A stretch of DNA of 64,000 bases from Candidatus Collierbacteria bacterium UBA2277 (lineage in GTDB: Bacteria > Patescibacteriota > Microgenomatia > UBA1400 > MFAQ01), in contig DDWV01000001.1 of the NCBI GenBank assembly GCA_002347045.1, positions 33,553 through 97,552 of the forward strand. The letters run 5' to 3'. Made by a program: the position numbers and the translations under genes. This document shows positions 17,343 through 62,556 of this stretch, in pieces (within the stretch, counting starts at the first letter, position 1; every line of letters begins with the position of its first letter). A model generated the notes under the pieces. It was not told where the DNA came from, did no database searches, and saw only the letters and a program-made list of their open reading frames with translations.

Positions 17343-17643
17343 GAATGTATTTTAGCATTGAGAAGAATACTAGTGCTTTGGGGTAAATATATCCTATATA
17401 CTTGACAATAAGAGTTTCTTTAGGTATAGTACCATCATTGAGAGCTTGTTCTTTTAGTTATAGTTAATGAGGAGAAAAATGAAAAATAAGGAAGTTGTGA
17501 GTTGTAATATTAGAAGGCTTTCAGGATTGGAGGCATTTGCTTCAAGAATAAATGCCTTTAAATGGATGATTATCCACCCATTTAAGTGGTGGATAAATAT
17601 CCACAAGAAGTAGTTATTTATGCCTCGGGAAACCGAGGCTTTT

Positions 17644-23293: not shown

Positions 23294-24808
23294 ATGGAAA
23301 ATAATAATATATTCCATTTTGCTCGATTAACTTTAGTGTTGTTGGTTGCAATGGCTTTTTCAAGATTATTTTTTTTAACAGTGTTTATGGGTCGGCATTT
23401 TAGCGATCAAGCTTTGGGGAATATGATAAAAATTGAGAGAACTGCAGCAACGAGAGGTGTGATTAGTGATAGAAATGGAAAACCTTTGGCGATGAATATT
23501 GATAACAATGGAGAAGTGGTTAGGTTTTATCCTGCGGGAGAGGTGGTAGCAAGCGTTGTGGGATACTTGGGAAAGTCCGATGAATTATCGAATCTTGGAA
23601 GTGTTTTGGTTGGACGAAGTGGTTTGGAAAAAGAGTATCAGGATAGATTGGTTGGAAGTTTTGGAGAAACGATTGTAGAAGAAACAGCTCAGGGGGTAAA
23701 GAGAACTGAGATTAAAAGACGAGAAGCTGTTCATGGAGAAAACGTGGTTACGAACATCGACTTACCAATCCAACAAACTGCGTATTTAGCTTTGAAAAAC
23801 ACTCTTAATTCTGTTGGGGTAAGTGGGGCAGTCGTCGTGGCGACTGTAGATGGTCGAGTGCTGGCGCTGGTGTCTGCTCCTTCATATGACACAAATTTGT
23901 TTGTTTCGGGTGGAAAAAGAAGTGATTTTGGTGGTGACTTTAAGGATGTAAAAACTTTGTTGAGTGACACCGAGAAAAAGCCTTTGTTTAATAGGGCAAT
24001 TTCTGGGGACTTTGCTTCAGGTTCGGTTTTTAAGTTAGTTCCGGCGTTGGCGGCCTTGGAAGAAAATAAAATTGACAAAGATACTCTGATAGAAGATAGT
24101 GGTGAGATTGTAATTGGAGCTTATCGTTTTGGAAATTGGTTGTTGGATAAATACGGACAGACTGAAGGAAAGATTAACGTAGTAAAAGCTTTAGCTAGGA
24201 GTAACGATATTTTCTTTTACAAGATTGGTGAGTACTTGGGAGCTGATAAATTAATTTCATGGAGTAGTAAGTTGGGATTTGGTGAAGTGACGGGAATTGA
24301 TATTCCCGGAGAGTCTAGAGGTTTTTTACCCACACCATACTGGAGAGAAAGAGTTTTAGGTGAAAAGTGGTACTTGGGAAATACGTATCACTTTTCTATT
24401 GGTCAAGGAGACTTGACAACGACTCCTTTGCAGATCAACAGAATGACGGCAATGGTGGCTTCTGGGATAAAGTGCGATCCAAGGATAGTTGGGGTAGGTG
24501 AGTGTGTTGATTTAAAGATTAGTGAGGGGAATAGGCAAATTGTCTTGGAAGGAATGAAAGCTACTTGTAGTCCAGGGGGTACGGCTTTCCCTTTTTATGA
24601 GTACGAAGGAAAGCTTTACTGTAAAACTGGGACTGCGCAAAAAGGAGGAGAGGAGACATTGCCAAATGCTTGGTTTTCTATGGTGGTTCCGGTTGGAGAT
24701 AATGTTAAAGATTGGATTGTAGTTACAGTTTTAGTAGAAGAGGGGGGTGAGGGAAGTGCCGTAGCTGCACCAATAGCTAAGGAGTTGGTGCCTTTACTTC
24801 TAAAGTAG
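23294..24808 (+). CDS. mrdA: Penicillin-binding protein 2 (class B transpeptidase)
   Basis: SxxK (SGSVFK), SxN (SND), KTG (KTGTA) motifs in order; N-terminal TM; 504 aa. Confidence 0.8.
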   Translation: MENNNIFHFARLTLVLLVAMAFSRLFFLTVFMGRHFSDQALGNMIKIERTAATRGVISDRNGKPLAMNIDNNGEVVRFYPAGEVVASVVGYLGKSDELSNLGSVLVGRSGLEKEYQDRLVGSFGETIVEETAQGVKRTEIKRREAVHGENVVTNIDLPIQQTAYLALKNTLNSVGVSGAVVVATVDGRVLALVSAPSYDTNLFVSGGKRSDFGGDFKDVKTLLSDTEKKPLFNRAISGDFASGSVFKLVPALAALEENKIDKDTLIEDSGEIVIGAYRFGNWLLDKYGQTEGKINVVKALARSNDIFFYKIGEYLGADKLISWSSKLGFGEVTGIDIPGESRGFLPTPYWRERVLGEKWYLGNTYHFSIGQGDLTTTPLQINRMTAMVASGIKCDPRIVGVGECVDLKISEGNRQIVLEGMKATCSPGGTAFPFYEYEGKLYCKTGTAQKGGEETLPNAWFSMVVPVGDNVKDWIVVTVLVEEGGEGSAVAAPIAKELVPLLLK

Positions 24809-24817
24809 CTTATATAC

Positions 24818-24846
24818 TTGACAAATGAGTGTTATTGTGGTATATT
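24818..24846 (+). promoter_or_regulatory. Consensus sigma70-like promoter TTGACA-N17-TATATT
   Basis: TTGACA at 24818-24823, 17-nt spacer, TATATT at 24841-24846, directly after the PBP2 stop. Confidence 0.5.
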
Positions 24847-24854
24847 ATCGGTTA

Positions 24855-25641
24855 TCCTGAAAAAGGATGAACATTTAATTTATTTGATCAATCTAGATAT
24901 AACTTAGAGGCGTAAATATGAGCGTTCGGGATCCCCCGAAAGTTTATTAACTGATGGATAACTCCATCAGTTGTATCTAAAAGTGGAAACTCCTGCCAAA
25001 AAAAAGGAGGCCTATGGCCCGCTTTATGAATAAAATCCAAGTTATGCCTTCTGCCACCTAAGGGATTAGTGGTGTGTAGAGGCTGATGGGTGAGAGTCCT
25101 GTCCAGATCCATATTTGGGAACGCGAACCAAATATGGGAAAAGTGCTTAAGCATCCAGTCCAAGTTACGGGGTGAGGTCTTAATACCTACCACAATTAGC
25201 TACCGTCTTCTGAAAGAGCGGTTGGGTGTGCACAAACAAAAGATCAAAATTATCGGTATGAGAGGAGATTCAGTTCTAAGACAAATGGCCAATGGACAGC
25301 CCGCGGAAGTAATGGCTGCGTCCCCGGTTTTGCCTGACAAATTGAAAATCCTCTTGAGGAGTGAGCGGTGGGGTGGACAGCAAAGGTCACCCATTTTAAG
25401 CCGCTAGAGGTGGAAGGGGGAATGTGAGCCAGCTGTGGCAGCATTCCCTCTAAAAAAGTCCAGGGCAACAGTTCCCTGGCGCATACGATTTGCGGGAGGC
25501 ATGGTCTCGAACCGTGTTTTATTCCCGCCAGGGCGGTCATCCTTGGTATAGTACCGCGCCGTGAGCTTGTTTAAGCTCATTAAGGCGCTGGTGAATCCTA
25601 GGAGTCCCCCTGAAATCTGGCCCTTCTGCAGATACCGCAGA
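24855..25641 (+). ncRNA. Candidate large structured non-coding transcript (~790 nt) between promoter and terminator; identity unknown
   Basis: No credible long ORF. Many perfect hairpins: AACTGATGGA/TCCATCAGTT at ~24941-24968, CCATATTTGG/CCAAATATGG at ~25110-25145, GGGAATG..CATTCCC at ~25413-25449, CCAGGG..CCCTGG, nested GCGGGA[GGCATGG-TCTCGAA-CCGTG]TCCCGC. Terminator at 3' end. Confidence 0.3.
25608..25641 (+). terminator. Rho-independent terminator
   Basis: GGCCCTTCTGC-AGATACC-GCAGAAGGGCC followed by TTTTT. Confidence 0.65.
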
Positions 25642-25719
25642 AGGGCCTTTTTCTTGCTTAAAATTTGCTGTTTTGGTGTTTGTAGTAGAATACTTGGTTC
25701 GAAGTAAGGTATATTTTAT

Positions 25720-27744
25720 ATGGCAATGAAGAAATTAGTTATCGTAGAGTCTCCCACAAAAACAAAAAGTCTCTCCAAGTATTTGGGGTCTGATTTTGAG
25801 ATCTTGGCTTCTATGGGGCATGTGCGTGATCTTCCAAAAAGCAAGCTAGGAATAGAGATTACAGAAAAGGGGAGAGGTAAGTATGATTTTGTTCCTTCGT
25901 ATGAGTTGATGAGTGGAAAAGGAGAACAAGTGAAGAAGTTAGAAGATGCTGCTTCTAAAGTGGACGAGATAATACTGGCAGCTGATCCTGATCGTGAAGG
26001 AGAGGCAATTGCTTGGCATGTTGAGCACATTTTGAAGAGTTCTAGAAAGCTAGCAAATAAGAAAAATCTTGTTTTCAAAAGAATTTCATTTCACTCGATC
26101 ACAAAAGAGTCTGTCCTTGAAGCTTTAGAAAATCCACGAAAAATTGATATGGATATGGTAAATGCCCAACAAGCAAGACGATTCCTGGATCGTTTGGTAG
26201 GGTACAAACTATCTCCAATCCTTTGGAAGAAAGTCCGTAGAGGTTTGTCTGCCGGTCGTGTACAGAGTGTGGCTGTAGAGCTTATTGTAGAGAGAGAACG
26301 AGAAATTGAAAAGTTTAAGCCTGTAGAATACTGGCAAATTAAAGTGCTGGTAGCTACCGAAAAGGGCAAGAAACTTGAGATTGAGTTAGCAAAAATACGA
26401 GGAAAGAAGGCTGAAATAGGTGATTCTGAGAAAGCAAAAAAAATATTGGTTGATCTTGAGAAAGCGAAATATATTGTTTCAGAGATAAAGAAGTCTGAGC
26501 GAAAAACTTCCCCTCATGCACCATTTAAGACATCTACACTACAGCAGGCGGCGGCAAATGTGTTGGGTTGGTCTGCAAAAAGAACAATGAATGTGGCCCA
26601 AAAGCTTTACGAGCAGGGAGACATCACTTATCACCGTACTGATTCATTTTATCTTGCTCCAACAGCTATAGAAGCTGCTAGGAAGTTTATTGGTGAGAAC
26701 TATGGTTCTGAGTATTTACCAAAAGGGCCTCGATTGTTTAAAGCGGCAGGAAAAGTTGTGGCTCAAGAAGCTCATGAGGCAGTCAGACCTACACATATTG
26801 AGATTTCACCAGATGAGTTTACTGGTCAAGAAATGGCTACAGACCAGAAAAAACTTTATTCTTTGATTTGGAGAAGAACTGTAGGTTGTCAGATGGCTGA
26901 CGCCTTGTTTGACAATACCAAGGTGGTTGTGTCGGCAACTTTGGGAGATAGTAAGTCTTCTGATTACGAGTTGACAGCTACAGGAGTTGTGGTTAAGTTT
27001 GCTGGATGGAAAAAGTTGTTTTTGAAAGACAAGGATGAAGTTAAGGTTTTGCCAGAGATGGCAAAAGACGAGATCTTGGAGAAAAAGAAGGTTATAGGCG
27101 ATCAAAAATTTACTCAACCGTCGGCAAGATTCAATGATGCATCTTTAATTAAAGAGTTAGAAAAAAGAGGCATTGGAAGACCTTCAACTTATGCAGCAAT
27201 TATTTCTACTATTTTGGATAGACGCTACGTAGAACAGAGAGATAAAAAGTTTTTCCCAACTACCATTGGTATTGCTGTTGTAGATTTCTTGATGGAAAAC
27301 TTTCCACAAGAGATGGATTATGAGTTTACTGCAAAGATGGAAAACTCGCTCGATGAGATTGCCGATGGGAAATTGAACTGGGAAAAGATGTTGAGTGTTT
27401 TTTGGGATAAGTTTCGTGAACGAATTGTAAAAGTAGATAAGGATAGTGCAAGAGTCGGAGTGCCTACGGTGTCTACAGGAAAAAAGTGTCCAGAGTGTCA
27501 TGAGGGGGAGGTAGTAATTCGTGATGGAAAGTATGGAAAGTTTTTGTCTTGTTCGAGATATCCAGAGTGTACATACAAGGCCCCGTTTATTGAGTTTGTT
27601 TCTGGTGTCGCGTGTGAGAAATGTGGTAAGCGAGTCATTTTAAGAAAGACTCGTACTGGTCGTGACTTTTATGGTTGTGAAGATTATCCAAACTGCACAT
27701 GGGCTAGTTGGCATAAGCCAGGAACGAAAAAAGAAGAAAAGTAG
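25720..27744 (+). CDS. topA: DNA topoisomerase I with C-terminal zinc-ribbon repeats
   Basis: Toprim N-terminus (LVIVESPTKTKS), active-site region, three C4 zinc ribbons at the C-terminus (CPECHEGE..., CSRYPEC..., CEKCGK...); 674 aa. Confidence 0.85.
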   Translation: MAMKKLVIVESPTKTKSLSKYLGSDFEILASMGHVRDLPKSKLGIEITEKGRGKYDFVPSYELMSGKGEQVKKLEDAASKVDEIILAADPDREGEAIAWHVEHILKSSRKLANKKNLVFKRISFHSITKESVLEALENPRKIDMDMVNAQQARRFLDRLVGYKLSPILWKKVRRGLSAGRVQSVAVELIVEREREIEKFKPVEYWQIKVLVATEKGKKLEIELAKIRGKKAEIGDSEKAKKILVDLEKAKYIVSEIKKSERKTSPHAPFKTSTLQQAAANVLGWSAKRTMNVAQKLYEQGDITYHRTDSFYLAPTAIEAARKFIGENYGSEYLPKGPRLFKAAGKVVAQEAHEAVRPTHIEISPDEFTGQEMATDQKKLYSLIWRRTVGCQMADALFDNTKVVVSATLGDSKSSDYELTATGVVVKFAGWKKLFLKDKDEVKVLPEMAKDEILEKKKVIGDQKFTQPSARFNDASLIKELEKRGIGRPSTYAAIISTILDRRYVEQRDKKFFPTTIGIAVVDFLMENFPQEMDYEFTAKMENSLDEIADGKLNWEKMLSVFWDKFRERIVKVDKDSARVGVPTVSTGKKCPECHEGEVVIRDGKYGKFLSCSRYPECTYKAPFIEFVSGVACEKCGKRVILRKTRTGRDFYGCEDYPNCTWASWHKPGTKKEEK

Positions 27745-30925: not shown

Positions 30926-31118
30926 GATTTTTAAATGCCTTTTGACTTGCCTATAGGCTAGGTATACCAATACATAGCGTTAGATAATTGGTCTCTTTAC
31001 AATCAAAAGAGGAGAGCTTTGTATATGAAAGTTGAAGATTGTGCACCTTGTAATTCCAGGGGCTTTTTTGTACCTTGAGGTATAAAAAACCGCCCCATAT
31101 AGGGGCGGTGTTGGTTGG

Positions 31119-32162
31119 TTACTGAAGTGGTTCAATCAGCTTGATCGATGAGCCTGACAGTGTCAGGTTCCATTCACTTCCGTTCTTGTACATTGGGAAC
31201 TCTGTAGTGCAGTCCGGAAAATATGAGTAAATTCGCTTATCCGTAAGAAACTCCGTTTTGCAATGAATTTCTTGATTACCGCTTTGTCTCAGGGTTTCAG
31301 TTTCTGTTACGGCAGGACAAACAATATTATTGTCAACCCCTGTTGACTCCAGAGGATTAATTGAAACCCATTCCCAAATGTTGTACTTGTACATGGTTTG
31401 GTAATTGGGTACAGGGAGGAAAATTTTCTCGTCCTCGCAATGTTCAACCCAGTCCCAATCATCAATAGGTACTATGTCTGTCGTTGGAACGCATGTCGTT
31501 ACATCTTTGTAATTATCGATGACATCGCAAGTTCCGTCATCGTAACAGAACGTATTTGTATCAACGTACACTGACTCTGTATTGCAATCCTCACCCTTTA
31601 CAATCTCGTTATGTGACCCGACCACTTCCCAATTTTTATCGCAGATAGTATCTGTACGTAAGTAGACTTGGTCATAGTGATGAATTTCTTGACTTTCAGA
31701 AATATAATCACCATCTGGAGGAATACTCCAGTCACTGTGAAGATTGTATTGGTACTCAGACATGGGTACCTTACACGACCAACTGCTGGCAGATACCCTT
31801 CCTACCATTTCGCGAGGGGAGAAGATCCATATTAGTCCAAACACTATTACCAGTAGCGCCAGTGAGGCTCCCACGATACCAACCCAGTTTAAGCTTTTGG
31901 TTTTTGGACCGTAGCCTGGGAGGTAATAATCTCGTGAATCTTGTGTTTGATAAGATGGCCTGGAAGCGAAGCTTTCTTTTGTGGTGGTTTCTGCACTGTT
32001 TTTCAGGACGGTTTCTGATCCACAACTTGAACAAATCAAATCGTTTGTTTCGATTGAACAGTTCAAACACAATCGATTTGTTTTCCCGACATTTTGATGG
32101 CCCCACCACAGTTGGGGCATATCTTGGACTTGGGTGCGATTTTTGCATTGCAAAAAGGGCAC
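31119..32162 (-). CDS. C-terminal (frame-shifted) part of a multi-zinc-ribbon membrane protein: third Zn ribbon, TM helix, Cys-rich extracytoplasmic domain
   Basis: This frame begins with GTG and has no obvious RBS. CLNCS...CSSCGSE ribbon, TM (WVGIVGASLALLVIVFGLIWIF), then 15+ Cys in the ectodomain. Continuous with 32063..32452 after a -1 shift at 32081-32087. Confidence 0.55.
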   Translation of the reverse strand: MPFLQCKNRTQVQDMPQLWWGHQNVGKTNRLCLNCSIETNDLICSSCGSETVLKNSAETTTKESFASRPSYQTQDSRDYYLPGYGPKTKSLNWVGIVGASLALLVIVFGLIWIFSPREMVGRVSASSWSCKVPMSEYQYNLHSDWSIPPDGDYISESQEIHHYDQVYLRTDTICDKNWEVVGSHNEIVKGEDCNTESVYVDTNTFCYDDGTCDVIDNYKDVTTCVPTTDIVPIDDWDWVEHCEDEKIFLPVPNYQTMYKYNIWEWVSINPLESTGVDNNIVCPAVTETETLRQSGNQEIHCKTEFLTDKRIYSYFPDCTTEFPMYKNGSEWNLTLSGSSIKLIEPLQ

Positions 32163-32452
32163 TCTTCATCGGATCCGTGATCCAAATCAACCCCACGTGC
32201 TTTCATGTCCTTTTCAGTGAGAAATGGTCGGCTGTCGGCTGGTGTGACGTAGGTTTCTGTGGAGTCCTTTGGATTTCCACACATTGGGCAAAGTTTAGTA
32301 CTGCCATTTATGTGGTCATGACCACAACTATTGCATGTCCAGTCGGCATCAACTGTACCGACATAGACTGTTCGTGTGCCCGCTGGCTTTGTCATCCCAG
32401 CTTTTTTTGGATTCACGGACTTAGTACTCGATACGAGCTTTCTTTCTGCCAC
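32063..32452 (-). CDS. N-terminal part: tandem C4 zinc-ribbon protein (129 aa) ending just after a -1 slippery site
   Basis: Cys pairs CNSCGH/CPMCGN and CPFCNA/CPNCGG form two Zn ribbons. The stop lies 16 nt after heptamer G_GGA_AAA. Confidence 0.6.
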   Translation of the reverse strand: MAERKLVSSTKSVNPKKAGMTKPAGTRTVYVGTVDADWTCNSCGHDHINGSTKLCPMCGNPKDSTETYVTPADSRPFLTEKDMKARGVDLDHGSDEECPFCNAKIAPKSKICPNCGGAIKMSGKQIDCV

Positions 32453-62013: not shown

Positions 62014-62042
62014 GTAGTTAAAAAGTTTTTTTAACCCATTTC

Positions 62043-62325
62043 AAATGAAGTGGGTTATTTTATGCCGAGAGAGGGGATGCGATTCCCTGCCTCACCAGGT
62101 TCGTTAGGAAACTGGTTCGCCTGTTCGATCCCCTCATGCTTGTCAAAACAAATAGCCCTCCATAAAGGAGGACTATTTTTTTAGTGCCGAGAGAGGGGAT
62201 CGCCATTCAGTAACTATTTGCTAATAGTTCTTCATGGCCTGCCTCGTTGTCAGCCACACCTCCGGCTTTCGATCCCCATTTATGACAAAAAAATATACGT
62301 CCACAAGGGACGTATATTCTTATTG
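62043..62325. repeat. Two tandem ~141-bp units, each beginning with the 3'-terminal 17-20 nt of tRNA-Leu (minus-strand sense); att-like tRNA-end array
   Basis: TGCCGAGAGAGGGGAT(CG) recurs at 62043, 62184 and 62326 (the real tRNA 3' end) with 141/142-bp period. Each unit also contains a TTCGATCCCC block. Confidence 0.7.
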
Positions 62326-62408
62326 TGCCGAGAGAGGGGATCGAACCCTCACGGCCTTGCGACCACAGGTTTTTGAGACCTGAGCGTATACCATTCCGCC
62401 ATCTCGGC
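62326..62408 (-). tRNA. tRNA-Leu (anticodon CAA), long variable arm
   Basis: Minus strand: GCCGAGATGGCGGAATGGTA..., anticodon stem CAGGT/ACCTG with loop CTCAAAA, variable arm TGGTCGCAAGGCCGTG, T-arm GAGGG-TTCGATC-CCCTC, acceptor 3' strand TCTCGGC + A. Confidence 0.8.
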
Positions 62409-62436
62409 ATTACTAAGTTATATTTTATCTCACTAA

Positions 62437-62492
62437 GGTCTTGCGACCACAGGTTTTTTAGCCTTAAGTGTTTACCATTCTGCCATCTTGGC
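62437..62492 (-). pseudogene. Truncated tRNA-Leu(TAA)-like 5' fragment (acceptor, D-arm, anticodon region, variable arm) lacking T-arm and 3' acceptor strand
   Basis: Minus strand GCCAAGATGGCAGAATGGTAAACACTTAAGGCTAAAAAACCTGTGGTCGCAAGACC is ~80% identical to the 5' two-thirds of the adjacent tRNA-Leu; no TTCGA T-loop follows. Confidence 0.6.
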
Positions 62493-62556
62493 ATGACTAA
62501 GACTATATTTTACATTAAATCGCTTTGTTGAGGGTGGAATGGAGTAGAATATAGGA

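What the first reader, a model, noticed from the sequence alone, without database searches (positions are those of the whole stretch)
24818..25641. ~800-nt ORF-poor, hairpin-dense unit with consensus promoter and strong terminator between PBP2 and topA: candidate large structured ncRNA
A TTGACA-N17-TATATT promoter at 24818-24846 immediately follows the PBP2 stop. A GC-rich terminator sits at 25608-25641. In between there is no convincing coding frame. The only ORF over 100 codons (25090..25407) has no SD sequence. There are at least six perfect 6-10-bp hairpins, including AACTGATGGA/TCCATCAGTT, CCATATTTGG/CCAAATATGG, GGGAATG/CATTCCC and a nested GCGGGA[..GGCATGG-TCTCGAA-CCGTG..]TCCCGC that looks like a tRNA T-arm. 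I tried to match RNase P RNA (an AAAGTCCAGGGC P4-like string), tmRNA and SRP RNA by eye but could not confirm any of them. Housekeeping RNAs of this lineage may be divergent, or this may be a novel large ncRNA of the OLE/GOLLD/ROOL size class.
Basis: seen in the sequence. Interest (0 to 1): 0.55.

Follow-up and report, generated by a model that had tools for sequence, protein, structure and literature searches.

The report
Orphan structured RNA gene before topA
Between the PBP2 and topA genes of an uncultured CPR (Collierbacteria-like) bacterium lies a self-contained, about 800-base unit that appears to make a heavily folded non-coding RNA matching no known RNA family; relatives carry different folded RNAs at the same spot, and its function is unknown.

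Summary
A near-consensus promoter (24818-24846), an 11-bp terminator (25619-25647), no coding signal and far more hairpins than chance are all present.

It is not RNase P RNA, tmRNA, SRP, 6S, OLE, GOLLD or ROOL. Rfam found nothing relevant even at E<=10, and ARAGORN found nothing.

The genome is Collierbacteria-like (CPR). In relatives the PBP2-topA interval is a variable island. It is about 85 nt in some genomes. In others it holds protein cassettes, one or two ORF-poor GC-rich RNA units, or both.

These units share:
- the same promoter type
- a hairpin at the transcript's 5' end
- usually a Shine-Dalgarno site with a conserved 8-codon ORF (MKKxΦDKΦ-stop)
- a strong terminator
- extreme folding z-scores (-4 to -21)

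Two sub-families show compensatory base-pair changes.

The window's unit shares the 5' module. Its short ORF looks like a degenerate copy of the 8-codon ORF. Its 700-nt body matches nothing anywhere, so covariation cannot be tested for it.

Best reading: a stable, lineage-specific structured ncRNA gene of unknown function. This is a new family-level candidate supported only in silico.

The parts
23294..24808 (+). Upstream flank: PBP2 (penicillin-binding protein 2) gene. There is no terminator between its stop codon and the unit.
   Evidence: Pfam Transpeptidase and PBP_dimer domains. The ORF is listed.
24818..24846 (+). Sigma-70-type promoter. The -35 hexamer TTGACA is at 24818-24823, the spacer is 17 nt, the extended -10 is TGg-TATATT (24838-24846), and it is preceded by CTTATATA.
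   Evidence: 11/12 match, TG present. (one of 6 such sites in the window). The same promoter type heads every unit in relatives.
24854..24868 (+). 5'-terminal hairpin AUCCU-GAAAA-AGGAU, beginning 1-2 nt after the inferred transcription start (about 24853).
   Evidence: It is nearly identical in L001. A hairpin is kept at this place in all relatives' units, with different stem sequences. The transcription start is inferred from the promoter only.
24869..24908 (+). A/U-rich linker predicted to be unpaired (GAACAUUUAAUUUAUUUGAUC...).
   Evidence: Similar GWACWUUUAAAU stretches follow the 5' hairpin in relatives.
24909..25048 (+). Domain 1, a multi-branch domain. It holds hairpins 24918-24947 and 24948-24973 (the latter a perfect 10-bp AACTGATGGA/TCCATCAGTT) and 24980-25025.
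   Evidence: mean pair probabilities 0.59-0.96.
24990..25010 (+). Anti-SD / SD hairpin. CUCCU (24990-24994) pairs with AGGAG (25005-25009), which lies within the Shine-Dalgarno sequence AAGGAGG (25004-25010).
   Evidence: pair probability 0.96. The sequence is read.
25014..25061 (+). Short ORF MARFMNKIQVMPSAT-stop, starting 3 nt after GGAGG. It is probably a degenerate homolog of the relatives' 8-codon ORF MKKxΦDKΦ-stop, with the stop codon changed to CAA.
   Evidence: The SD-start context GGAGGCCTATG compares with GGAGGCCCATG in the nearest relative L163. Homology is inferred and weak.
25085..25395 (+). Domain 2, a 311-nt domain closed by two long-range helices: GAUGGGUGA/UCACCCAUU (25085-25093 with 25387-25395) and CUGUCCA/UGGACAG (25099-25105 with 25374-25380). 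It has three branches, including the perfect 10-bp hairpin 25109-25137.
   Evidence: pair probabilities 0.85-0.99. This is a prediction only, with no covariation available.
25415..25612 (+). This is the GC-richest part (0.55).
25619..25655 (+). Intrinsic terminator: a perfect 11-bp G+C-rich stem, a 7-nt loop, then UUUUUCUU.
   Evidence: Equivalent terminators end every unit in relatives.
25686..25691 (+). Downstream flank: the conserved -10 element (G)TAGAATAC of topA's own promoter. topA is at 25720-27744.
   Evidence: The element is conserved in all relatives, including those without any unit. Pfam Toprim and Topoisom_bac domains.

Best explanation
This is an independent RNA gene. A strong constitutive-type promoter fires just after PBP2. 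An intrinsic terminator stops transcription about 800 nt later, just before topA's own promoter. The product is a non-coding, very stably folded RNA read from the + strand.

It is the local representative of a lineage-specific set of RNA units found in Collierbacteria-like CPR bacteria. These units sit in the variable PBP2-topA island and share an expression and 5' module:
- a consensus promoter
- a hairpin at the very 5' end
- an A/U-rich linker
- a Shine-Dalgarno site with a very short ORF

Each also has a strong 3' terminator. The 300-700-nt body is G+C-rich and heavily base-paired, but it is free to change in sequence.

Inferred mode of action:
- The two end hairpins protect the RNA from exonucleases, so it accumulates.
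- The RNA then acts through its fold, as a scaffold or decoy for a protein or for the ribosome, rather than through a conserved catalytic or ligand-binding core.
- In relatives, a ribosome translating the 8-codon ORF would open the structure that starts at or just after the stop codon.
- In this copy the SD is locked in a hairpin and the ORF has drifted, so it probably works as a pure RNA.
- PBP2 has no terminator of its own here, so the same sequence also serves as the 3' end of the mre-PBP2 operon transcript.

Shown: the anatomy, the lack of coding signal, the excess structure, the synteny and the shared 5' module. Inferred: that it is transcribed, that it is stable, and what it binds.
For: Promoter and terminator.

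Non-coding.

Structure far beyond chance: z = -8.6; hairpin excess; coding controls z +1.6 to -2.8.

The + strand folds better than the - strand: -301 vs -264 kcal/mol, and 30 vs 14 G-U pairs in the MFE structures.

Synteny:
- 13 or more relatives carry the PBP2-topA interval.
- The interval is about 85 nt in L003, L004, L005, L097 and L165.
- It is 500-3000 nt elsewhere.

Features of the relatives' ORF-poor units:
- GC 0.39-0.56 and z from -4.4 to -20.8
- the same -35/17/-10 promoter and a 5'-proximal hairpin
- strong terminators

The window and L001 share 86% identity over promoter plus 5' hairpin.

A mini-ORF with synonymous codon variation and all three stop codons occurs in 8 distinct relatives (9 distinct copies; a tenth in L163). 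It occurs nowhere else in 160 loci.

Covariation in relatives:
- 9 of 29 pairs are compensatory and 88% of cells paired, reached by 0-1 of 500 shuffles.
- 9 of 33 pairs are compensatory and 95.6% paired, reached by 0 of 500 shuffles.

Purifying selection in relatives: the L002 and L081 units are 68% identical over 581 nt, whereas four-fold sites of their topA genes are only 49% identical.

C-GAAA-G tetraloop strings are enriched: 12 of 17 units against 3.5 expected.
Against: No expression data exist.

The window's body has no homolog anywhere:
- nhmmer --max finds nothing at E<=10.
- Smith-Waterman z is <=2.6.
- There are no matches in phages, plasmids or viral contigs.
- The only other copies are 100% identical.

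So no base pair of this RNA is supported by covariation.

It lacks the motifs conserved in the relatives' families: the intact mini-ORF, the GCGGAGC...CGCGAAG motif and the GUAAGUAACUAAAUUACUUGC hairpin.

The unit is absent from this site in some close relatives, so it is dispensable there or sits elsewhere.

A body with no sequence constraint also fits weak or no function. No binding partner is identified. The proposed mode of action is generic.
Confidence: 0.6

Rival explanations
1. The sequence is transcribed but functionally neutral filler of a variable genomic island. On this reading it is a decaying cassette or an accumulation of palindromic mini-elements (REP/BOX/MITE-like). It happens to lie between a promoter and a terminator, and its hairpins do not serve an RNA function.
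For: The interval is a hot spot with changing content: NDT-like gene, SPFH gene, small acidic ORF, RNA units, or nothing. The window's body is an orphan with no conserved motif. Its short ORF looks degenerate. Some relatives lack any unit here.
Against: No part of the unit is repeated elsewhere in the 64-kb window. There are no tandem or direct repeats. GC is 3-4 SD above the genome mean. The fold is better on the + strand and includes G-U pairs. Related units in other genomes are under purifying selection and show compensatory changes. A near-perfect promoter and terminator are maintained.
Confidence: 0.2
2. It is a long regulatory leader or attenuator. The strong promoter feeds topA (or whatever lies downstream) through regulated read-through of the terminator. 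The short ORF would act as a ribosome-sensing leader peptide, as in erm, cat or trp attenuators.
For: An SD plus short ORF lies upstream of a strong terminator in the same orientation as topA. In the minimal relative L082/L166 (about 290 nt), the ORF stop abuts a conserved helix shortly before the terminator. In the window, CCUUCUGC at the end of the short ORF (25047-25054) is identical to part of the terminator's 5' arm. It could therefore compete for the 3' arm.
Against: topA keeps its own conserved promoter and leader in all genomes, with or without a unit. Units can be separated from topA by other genes with their own promoters (L006, L081, L164). Units can also occur in tandem (L007, L011, L090). 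A distance of 560 nt between ORF and terminator is far longer than in known attenuators. The single 8-nt match is within chance (about 5%, my estimate).
Confidence: 0.1
3. It is a highly divergent housekeeping RNA (RNase P RNA, tmRNA, SRP RNA or 6S RNA) that standard models miss, as reported for some CPR RNase P RNAs.
For: CPR RNase P RNAs can fall below Rfam thresholds (PMC8172020, read). The unit contains AAAGUCCAGGGC and ACAGUUCCCUGGC, which resemble the two P4 strands, and a hairpin followed by ...CCCGCCA.
Against: No match to any of these families appears even at E<=10 on a 1.1-kb search with lax filters, and ARAGORN is negative. The two P4-like strings are 8 nt apart and form a plain hairpin. 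There is no acceptor stem or 7-nt T-loop. An essential RNA would be conserved in relatives with 80% identical TopA, yet the body is unalignable and the unit is absent from this site in several genomes. No such hit appears in relatives' units either.
Confidence: 0.02
4. It encodes one or more small proteins, or a frameshifted or pseudogenised protein gene.
For: Three ORFs of 96-105 codons exist. One of them was called as a gene in a public assembly. A 15-codon ORF follows a strong SD.
Against: Protein families, homolog search and codon usage are all negative, as itemised under the observation check. There is also no protein-level similarity to the ORFs in relatives' intervals. The SD of the 15-codon ORF is paired.
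Confidence: 0.04

Closest known systems
Large 'ornate' bacterial ncRNAs of unknown or partly known function (OLE, GOLLD, ROOL)
   Same: The size class matches (about 600-800 nt). It is a stand-alone gene with multi-domain predicted folds and long-range helices. It has a patchy, accessory distribution and no coding capacity. GNRA-type tetraloop strings are enriched in the relatives' set.
   Different: There is no match to their covariance models. Those families keep many conserved nucleotides and covarying helices across phyla. Here the body has no detectable sequence conservation even within a genus-to-family-level group. There is no link to tRNA genes or prophages (ROOL/GOLLD) or to Oap proteins (OLE). 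An SD plus short ORF is part of the unit.
Dual-function RNAs that carry a small ORF (RNAIII/hld, SgrS/SgrT, SR1/SR1P)
   Same: It is a structured regulatory-type RNA with a translated short ORF near the 5' end. In relatives the ORF shows codon-level conservation.
   Different: The ORF is far shorter (8 codons). The RNA is several times larger. No target-pairing region is known. In the window copy the ORF is degenerate and its SD is sequestered.
Leader-peptide attenuators (ermC/ermB, cat/cmlA and trp leaders)
   Same: A short SD-led ORF sits upstream of RNA structure and an intrinsic terminator. The relatives' peptide has a hydrophobic-Asp-Lys core reminiscent of the ErmBL ...V-D-K stalling site. 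That resemblance is from my own knowledge and was not tested.
   Different: No regulated ORF follows inside the unit. The ORF-to-terminator distance is hundreds of nt. Units occur away from topA and in tandem. topA has its own promoter.
5' stabiliser elements of stable bacterial transcripts (ompA 5' hairpin; 'STAB-SD' of cryIIIA; ermC stalled-ribosome protection)
   Same: There is a hairpin within a few nt of the 5' end, and an SD-like element some distance downstream, in a transcript that ends in a strong terminator hairpin.
   Different: Those elements stabilise mRNAs. Here there is no mRNA body. The stabilising role is inferred and was not tested.
Interspersed palindromic intergenic elements (REP/BIME, BOX, RUP, Correia)
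   Same: It is a hairpin-dense, ORF-free intergenic sequence that is transcribed with neighbours.
   Different: It is single-copy in the 64 kb available. It has its own consensus promoter and terminator. It is much longer and is not built of repeated modules.

Membership tests
Bacterial RNase P RNA (Rfam RF00010/RF00011) | Match to the family covariance model | tested here: not met
   There is no hit at gathering score in the window. There is none at E<=10 in 24700-25800 on either strand.
Bacterial RNase P RNA (Rfam RF00010/RF00011) | A P4 helix formed by two conserved strands (GGAAAGUCCGG... and ACAGAANCCGGCUUA) separated by about 250-300 nt of specificity and catalytic domains | tested here: not met
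   The look-alike strings at 25453-25465 and 25468-25481 are 8 nt apart. They form a local 6-bp hairpin with pair probability 0.99.
tmRNA (RF00023 and the permuted forms) | A tRNA-like domain (acceptor stem, T-arm with 7-nt loop, 3' CCA) plus a tag reading frame, as detected by ARAGORN or Rfam | tested here: not met
   ARAGORN finds only four tRNAs elsewhere in the window. There is no Rfam hit. The nested hairpin 25499-25517 has a 7-bp stem and a 5-nt loop.
SRP RNA / 6S RNA | Match to the family covariance model | tested here: not met
OLE, GOLLD, ROOL, HEARO, raiA and other large ncRNA families in Rfam 15 | Match to the family covariance model (conserved nucleotides plus covarying helices) | tested here: not met
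   The same holds for the analogous units of 12 relatives.
OLE, GOLLD, ROOL | Typical genomic company: Oap genes for OLE; tRNA genes or prophage for GOLLD and ROOL | tested here: not met
   The neighbours are mreB, mreC, mreD-like, PBP2 and topA, then thyX and tmk. There are no phage matches.
PBP2-topA island RNA units of Collierbacteria-like genomes (unnamed; defined here) | Position between PBP2 (or island cassettes) and topA, on the same strand | tested here: met
PBP2-topA island RNA units of Collierbacteria-like genomes (unnamed; defined here) | TTGACA-17-TAnAnT promoter, a hairpin within about 12 nt after the -10 element, an A/U-rich linker and a strong intrinsic terminator | tested here: met
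   Identity to L001 is 86% over promoter plus hairpin.
PBP2-topA island RNA units of Collierbacteria-like genomes (unnamed; defined here) | ORF-poor, G+C-enriched body with a folding z-score far below that of coding DNA | tested here: met
PBP2-topA island RNA units of Collierbacteria-like genomes (unnamed; defined here) | An SD followed by the 8-codon ORF M-K-K-x-Φ-D-K-Φ-stop | tested here: inconclusive
   The strict pattern is absent from the window. At the same relative place the window has GGAGGCCTATG + MARFMNKIQ..., against GGAGGCCCATG + MKKLLDKQ-stop in L163. At least one relative's unit (L164) also lacks the ORF.
PBP2-topA island RNA units of Collierbacteria-like genomes (unnamed; defined here) | Sequence or structure homology of the body to sub-family A1 (GCGCGGAGC-hairpin-AGUCGCGAAG motif) or B (GUAAGUAACUAAAUUACUUGC hairpin) | tested here: not met
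   nhmmer --max finds nothing at E<=10. Smith-Waterman z is <=2.6. Neither motif appears in the sequence. No covariance-model search was run with these sub-families.
Any structured ncRNA | Covariation support for the predicted helices of this very RNA | not testable with these tools
   The only other copies are 100% identical. The nearest relatives have <=78% PBP2 identity and unalignable units.

The most novel reading that the evidence does not exclude
CPR bacteria of the Collierbacteria group may carry a previously undescribed class of abundant, large (0.3-1 kb) RNAs at one chromosomal island. These RNAs would be extremely stably folded and evolve as fast as silent sites in sequence while keeping their fold density. 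They would be built on a common 5' module that recruits a ribosome to an 8-codon ORF. That would make them a translation-coupled structural RNA with no counterpart among known families. The window's unit would be one divergent member that has become ribosome-independent.
Probability: 0.3. Interest if true: 0.7.

Novelty: new variant of a known kind. Interest (0 to 1): 0.45.

Why it matters
CPR/Patescibacteria have tiny genomes, so an 800-nt stretch kept non-coding behind a near-perfect promoter is conspicuous. Their non-coding RNA repertoire is almost unexplored: three of the four literature searches made on this found nothing on the subject, and the fourth was not examined for it.

If these units are real, they would add a new family-level group to the short list of large bacterial structured RNAs. 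They have two unusual properties:
- fold density is maintained without sequence conservation
- in most members, the RNA is coupled to a conserved 8-codon ORF

They would also be good candidates for structural work of the kind recently done on OLE, GOLLD and ROOL.

If the window's copy is only island filler, the result still flags the PBP2-topA interval as a recombination hot spot in this lineage.

Tried and rejected
Known RNA families:
- Rfam at gathering score on the whole window.
- Rfam at E<=10 on the region.
- Rfam on relatives' loci.
- ARAGORN.
- Nothing relevant in any of these.

Homologs of the body:
- blastn, nhmmer and Smith-Waterman against about 30 related PBP2-topA intervals from genome, metagenome and Logan/ENA/JGI contigs. 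Only the promoter and 5' hairpin match.
- Phage and plasmid collections: no match.
- A viral-contig scan with a degenerate mini-ORF pattern: no match.
- A protein-space trick: searching the spurious 105-aa ORF among 5.8 billion predicted proteins. Only itself was found.
- An exact-protein look-up of PBP2, which returned only 100% identical copies.

Pseudogene or coding:
- tblastn of all ORFs from relatives' intervals.
- Pfam, PHROGs and NCBIfam.
- Codon-usage scoring.
- All negative.

Other ideas tested and rejected:
- Repeat-based systems (CRISPR/TIGR-like arrays, type III antitoxin arrays): no direct or tandem repeats.
- CsrB-like sponge: I saw no repeated loop motif, and GGA is not enriched. 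This was judged by eye and from the k-mer scan.
- Defence-island context: there are no PADLOC hits for the island cassettes.
- Formal covariation of the 5' hairpin across all units: dropped, because the stem register shifts by one base between groups in the sequence alignment. I claim only that a hairpin is kept at that place.
- Literature: no paper found describing such RNAs in CPR.
Full report
WHAT IS THERE

The 911-nt interval 24809-25719 lies between PBP2 (23294-24808, +) and topA (25720-27744, +). Both genes were confirmed by Pfam.

- Promoter. Nine bases after the PBP2 stop codon starts a TTGACA-17-TATATT promoter with a TG extension (24818-24846; 11/12). Only six sites this good exist on both strands of the 64-kb window.
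- Terminator. A perfect 11-bp G+C-rich stem at 25619-25647 is followed by TTTTTCTT.
- topA promoter. topA keeps its own conserved -10 element (TAGAAT, 25686-25691) and an SD-less A/U-rich leader downstream of that terminator.
- Unit. The unit is therefore a self-contained promoter-to-terminator cassette of about 800 nt on the + strand. PBP2 has no terminator of its own, so operon transcripts should also run through it.

NOT CODING

- The three longest ORFs (96-105 codons, in three different frames and strands) have no Pfam, PHROGs or NCBIfam match.
- The 105-codon ORF finds only itself among 5.8 billion proteins.
- ORFs from the equivalent intervals of relatives show no protein-level similarity.
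- A codon-usage log-likelihood trained on 25 genes of this window is negative in all six frames (-0.11 to -0.31). Real-gene chunks average +0.21 +/- 0.11, with a minimum of -0.065.

STRUCTURE BEYOND CHANCE

- The + strand folds to -301.4 kcal/mol, z = -8.6 against dinucleotide shuffles.
- The - strand folds to -264.2 kcal/mol, z = -6.0.
- The + strand MFE structure uses 30 G-U pairs against 14 on the - strand. This points to an RNA-level fold rather than a DNA-level one.
- Six 800-nt coding controls from the window give z from +1.6 to -2.8.
- Perfect Watson-Crick hairpins with stems >=7 bp number 5 against 0.77 expected (0 of 300 shuffles). Stems >=10 bp number 3 against 0.02 expected.
- GC rises to 0.555 at 25300-25600, against a window mean of 0.40 +/- 0.04.

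Predicted architecture:
- A 5'-terminal hairpin at 24854-24868.
- An A/U-rich linker.
- Domain 1 (24909-25048). It includes a hairpin that pairs CUCCU with the AGGAG of a strong Shine-Dalgarno sequence.
- A 15-codon ORF (25014-25061).
- A 311-nt domain 2, closed by two long-range helices (25085-25105 with 25374-25395).
- Four 3' hairpins.
- The terminator.

NOT A KNOWN RNA

- Rfam 15 gives only four tRNAs elsewhere in the window at gathering score.
- At E<=10 on 24700-25800 it returns only seven chance-level, terminator-type matches. None is to RNase P, tmRNA, SRP, 6S, OLE, GOLLD, ROOL or any ribozyme or intron.
- ARAGORN finds no tmRNA or tRNA there.
- The 'T-arm' is a 7-bp stem with a 5-nt loop.
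- CPR RNase P RNAs are known to be divergent (PMC8172020). But an essential RNA would not be unalignable between genomes with 80% identical TopA, nor missing from the site in some of them.

RELATIVES

TopA and PBP2 place the window in a Collierbacteria-like Microgenomates (CPR) lineage.

- The window's own sequence occurs, 100% identical, in a JGI metagenome and a Logan assembly.
- The next PBP2 relatives are only 73-78% identical.
- Four-fold synonymous sites of topA are 34-41% identical between the window and its relatives, which is saturated.

Across about 30 related loci the PBP2-topA interval is a variable island.
- It is about 85 nt (PBP2 terminator plus topA promoter) in L003, L004, L005 and L097, and about 57 nt in L165.
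- Elsewhere it is 500-3000 nt, holding combinations of:
  - an NDT-like small protein
  - an SPFH/Band-7 protein
  - a 32-aa acidic ORF
  - one or two ORF-poor units
- Sources.

The ORF-poor units have:
- GC 0.39-0.56 and folding z-scores from -4.4 to -20.8
- the same TTGACA-17-TAnAnT promoter
- a hairpin starting 6-13 nt after the -10 element
- strong terminators

An SD-led 8-codon ORF, M-K-K-x-[FLM]-D-[KH]-[LMQ]-stop, is found in nine distinct relatives.
- It has abundant synonymous differences and uses all three stop codons.
- It occurs nowhere else in 160 fetched loci or in the window.

Two sub-families can be aligned and show compensatory changes:
- The first domain of 'type B': 29 pairs, 88% paired, 9 pairs with double changes, reached by 0-1 of 500 shuffles; slid controls <=48% paired.
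- Local helices of 'type A1': 33 pairs, 95.6% paired, 9 with double changes, reached by 0 of 500 shuffles.
- Caveat: the tested structures came from RNAalifold on the same alignments.

The L002 and L081 units are 68% identical over 581 nt, although their topA four-fold sites are only 49% identical. This indicates purifying selection.

No unit matches Rfam.

HOW THE WINDOW'S UNIT RELATES

- It shares the position and the promoter.
- It shares the 5' hairpin, with 86% identity to L001 over 65 nt.
- It shares the A/U linker and an SD at a similar distance from the start.
- Its SD-start context GGAGGCCUAUG is almost identical to GGAGGCCCAUG in the nearest relative, L163.
- Its ORF (M-A-R-F-M-N-K-I-Q...) lines up with M-K-K-x-Φ-D-K-Φ-stop if D became N and the stop codon became CAA. 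This is plausible but weak evidence of homology.
- Its SD is predicted to be sequestered (pair probability 0.96).

From about +70 onward the body matches nothing:
- no other unit (nhmmer --max at E<=10; Smith-Waterman z <=2.6)
- no phage, plasmid or viral contig
- nothing elsewhere in the window

At this evolutionary distance that is what a sequence constrained only for 'being folded' would look like. It is also what an unconstrained sequence would look like. The excess structure, the GC enrichment and the strand asymmetry argue for the former.

INTERPRETATION

The best-supported reading (about 0.6) is a stand-alone gene for a stable, heavily structured ncRNA. It would be a divergent member of a lineage-specific group of island RNAs.

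- The end hairpins plausibly protect the RNA.
- The fold itself, rather than conserved nucleotides, would be the functional feature, for example as a scaffold or decoy.
- In relatives, translation of the mini-ORF would remodel the structure that starts at or after its stop codon.
- These functional steps are inferred, not shown.

Rivals:
- Neutral island filler or palindromic debris: about 0.2.
- A long attenuator feeding topA: about 0.1. It is weakened by topA's own conserved promoter, by units separated from topA, and by tandem units.
- Small-protein coding: about 0.04.
- A divergent housekeeping RNA: about 0.02.

VERDICT

It belongs to no known family. I rate it a new variant of the known kind 'large stand-alone structured bacterial ncRNA'. 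Interest is moderate (0.45), because expression and covariation evidence for this particular RNA are missing.

Noticed in passing
Related loci: L001 3490 and 3741; L002 3568; L007/L092 2781; L013 3056; L081 328; L086 1489; L090 2953; L163 about 2908: An SD-led 8-codon ORF (MKKEFDKL-stop and variants) is conserved. It has synonymous codon changes and uses all three stop codons. It sits inside otherwise non-coding, highly structured units. In L082/L166 and L163 its stop codon directly abuts a conserved helix (GCUCGNGCGGARC...GAGYCGCGAAG).
   Followed up: partly
PBP2-topA interval in L001-L013, L081-L101 and L163-L166: The interval is a variable island. It ranges from about 85 nt to 3 kb. Its interchangeable cassettes are an NDT-like small protein, an SPFH/Band-7 protein, a 32-aa acidic ORF (MFEKIIVRYDSSDDSDHSSDDEENTTPEMFGS) and one or two structured RNA units. 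The cassettes have no PADLOC defence hits.
   Followed up: partly
L007 3245-3947, L090 3382-3947, L093 1-600, L094 1240-1790: A second RNA family ('type B') has a strongly conserved hairpin GGGYGUAAGUAACUNAAAUUACUUGCWCUCGG inside a long covarying helix. It sometimes has its own promoter and sometimes directly follows a type-A unit. Folding z-scores are -12 to -16.
   Followed up: partly
window 62040-62500 (- strand): Next to tRNA-Leu(CAA) (62325-62408) lie at least three partial copies of its ends. TGCCGAGAGAGGGGAT occurs at about 62064 and about 62186, and a copy of the 5' half lies at about 62428-62495. They look like integration scars, or like pseudo or intron-bearing tRNA genes.
   Followed up: no
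window 31119-32452 (- strand): Overlapping ORFs of 129, 141 and 347 aa in different frames are Cys-rich (zinc-ribbon-like). The 347-aa ORF has no Pfam hit; the other two were not scanned. This may be one frameshifted gene or two overlapping genes. A terminator lies at about 31089-31109.
   Followed up: no
window 25008-25020 and 25460-25479 (read on the - strand): Two hairpins inside the unit are preceded on the + strand by A-runs. On the - strand they therefore look like intrinsic terminators. No - strand gene or good - strand promoter lies to their right.
   Followed up: no
window 25692-25722 and the last about 40 nt before topA in all relatives: topA has a conserved, SD-less, A/U-rich leader (AATGTATATTTTTAWRAGTA-ATG). 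It has a conserved TAGAATAC -10 element. This suggests non-canonical translation initiation.
   Followed up: no
window 17394-17640: The same CCTATATACTTGACA-17-TATAGT promoter type drives a 44-codon ORF (MKNKEVVSCNIRRLSGLEAFASRINAFKWMIIHPFKWWINIHKK) followed by a terminator. The promoter type is therefore general for strongly expressed small units in this genome and is not specific to the RNA.
   Followed up: no
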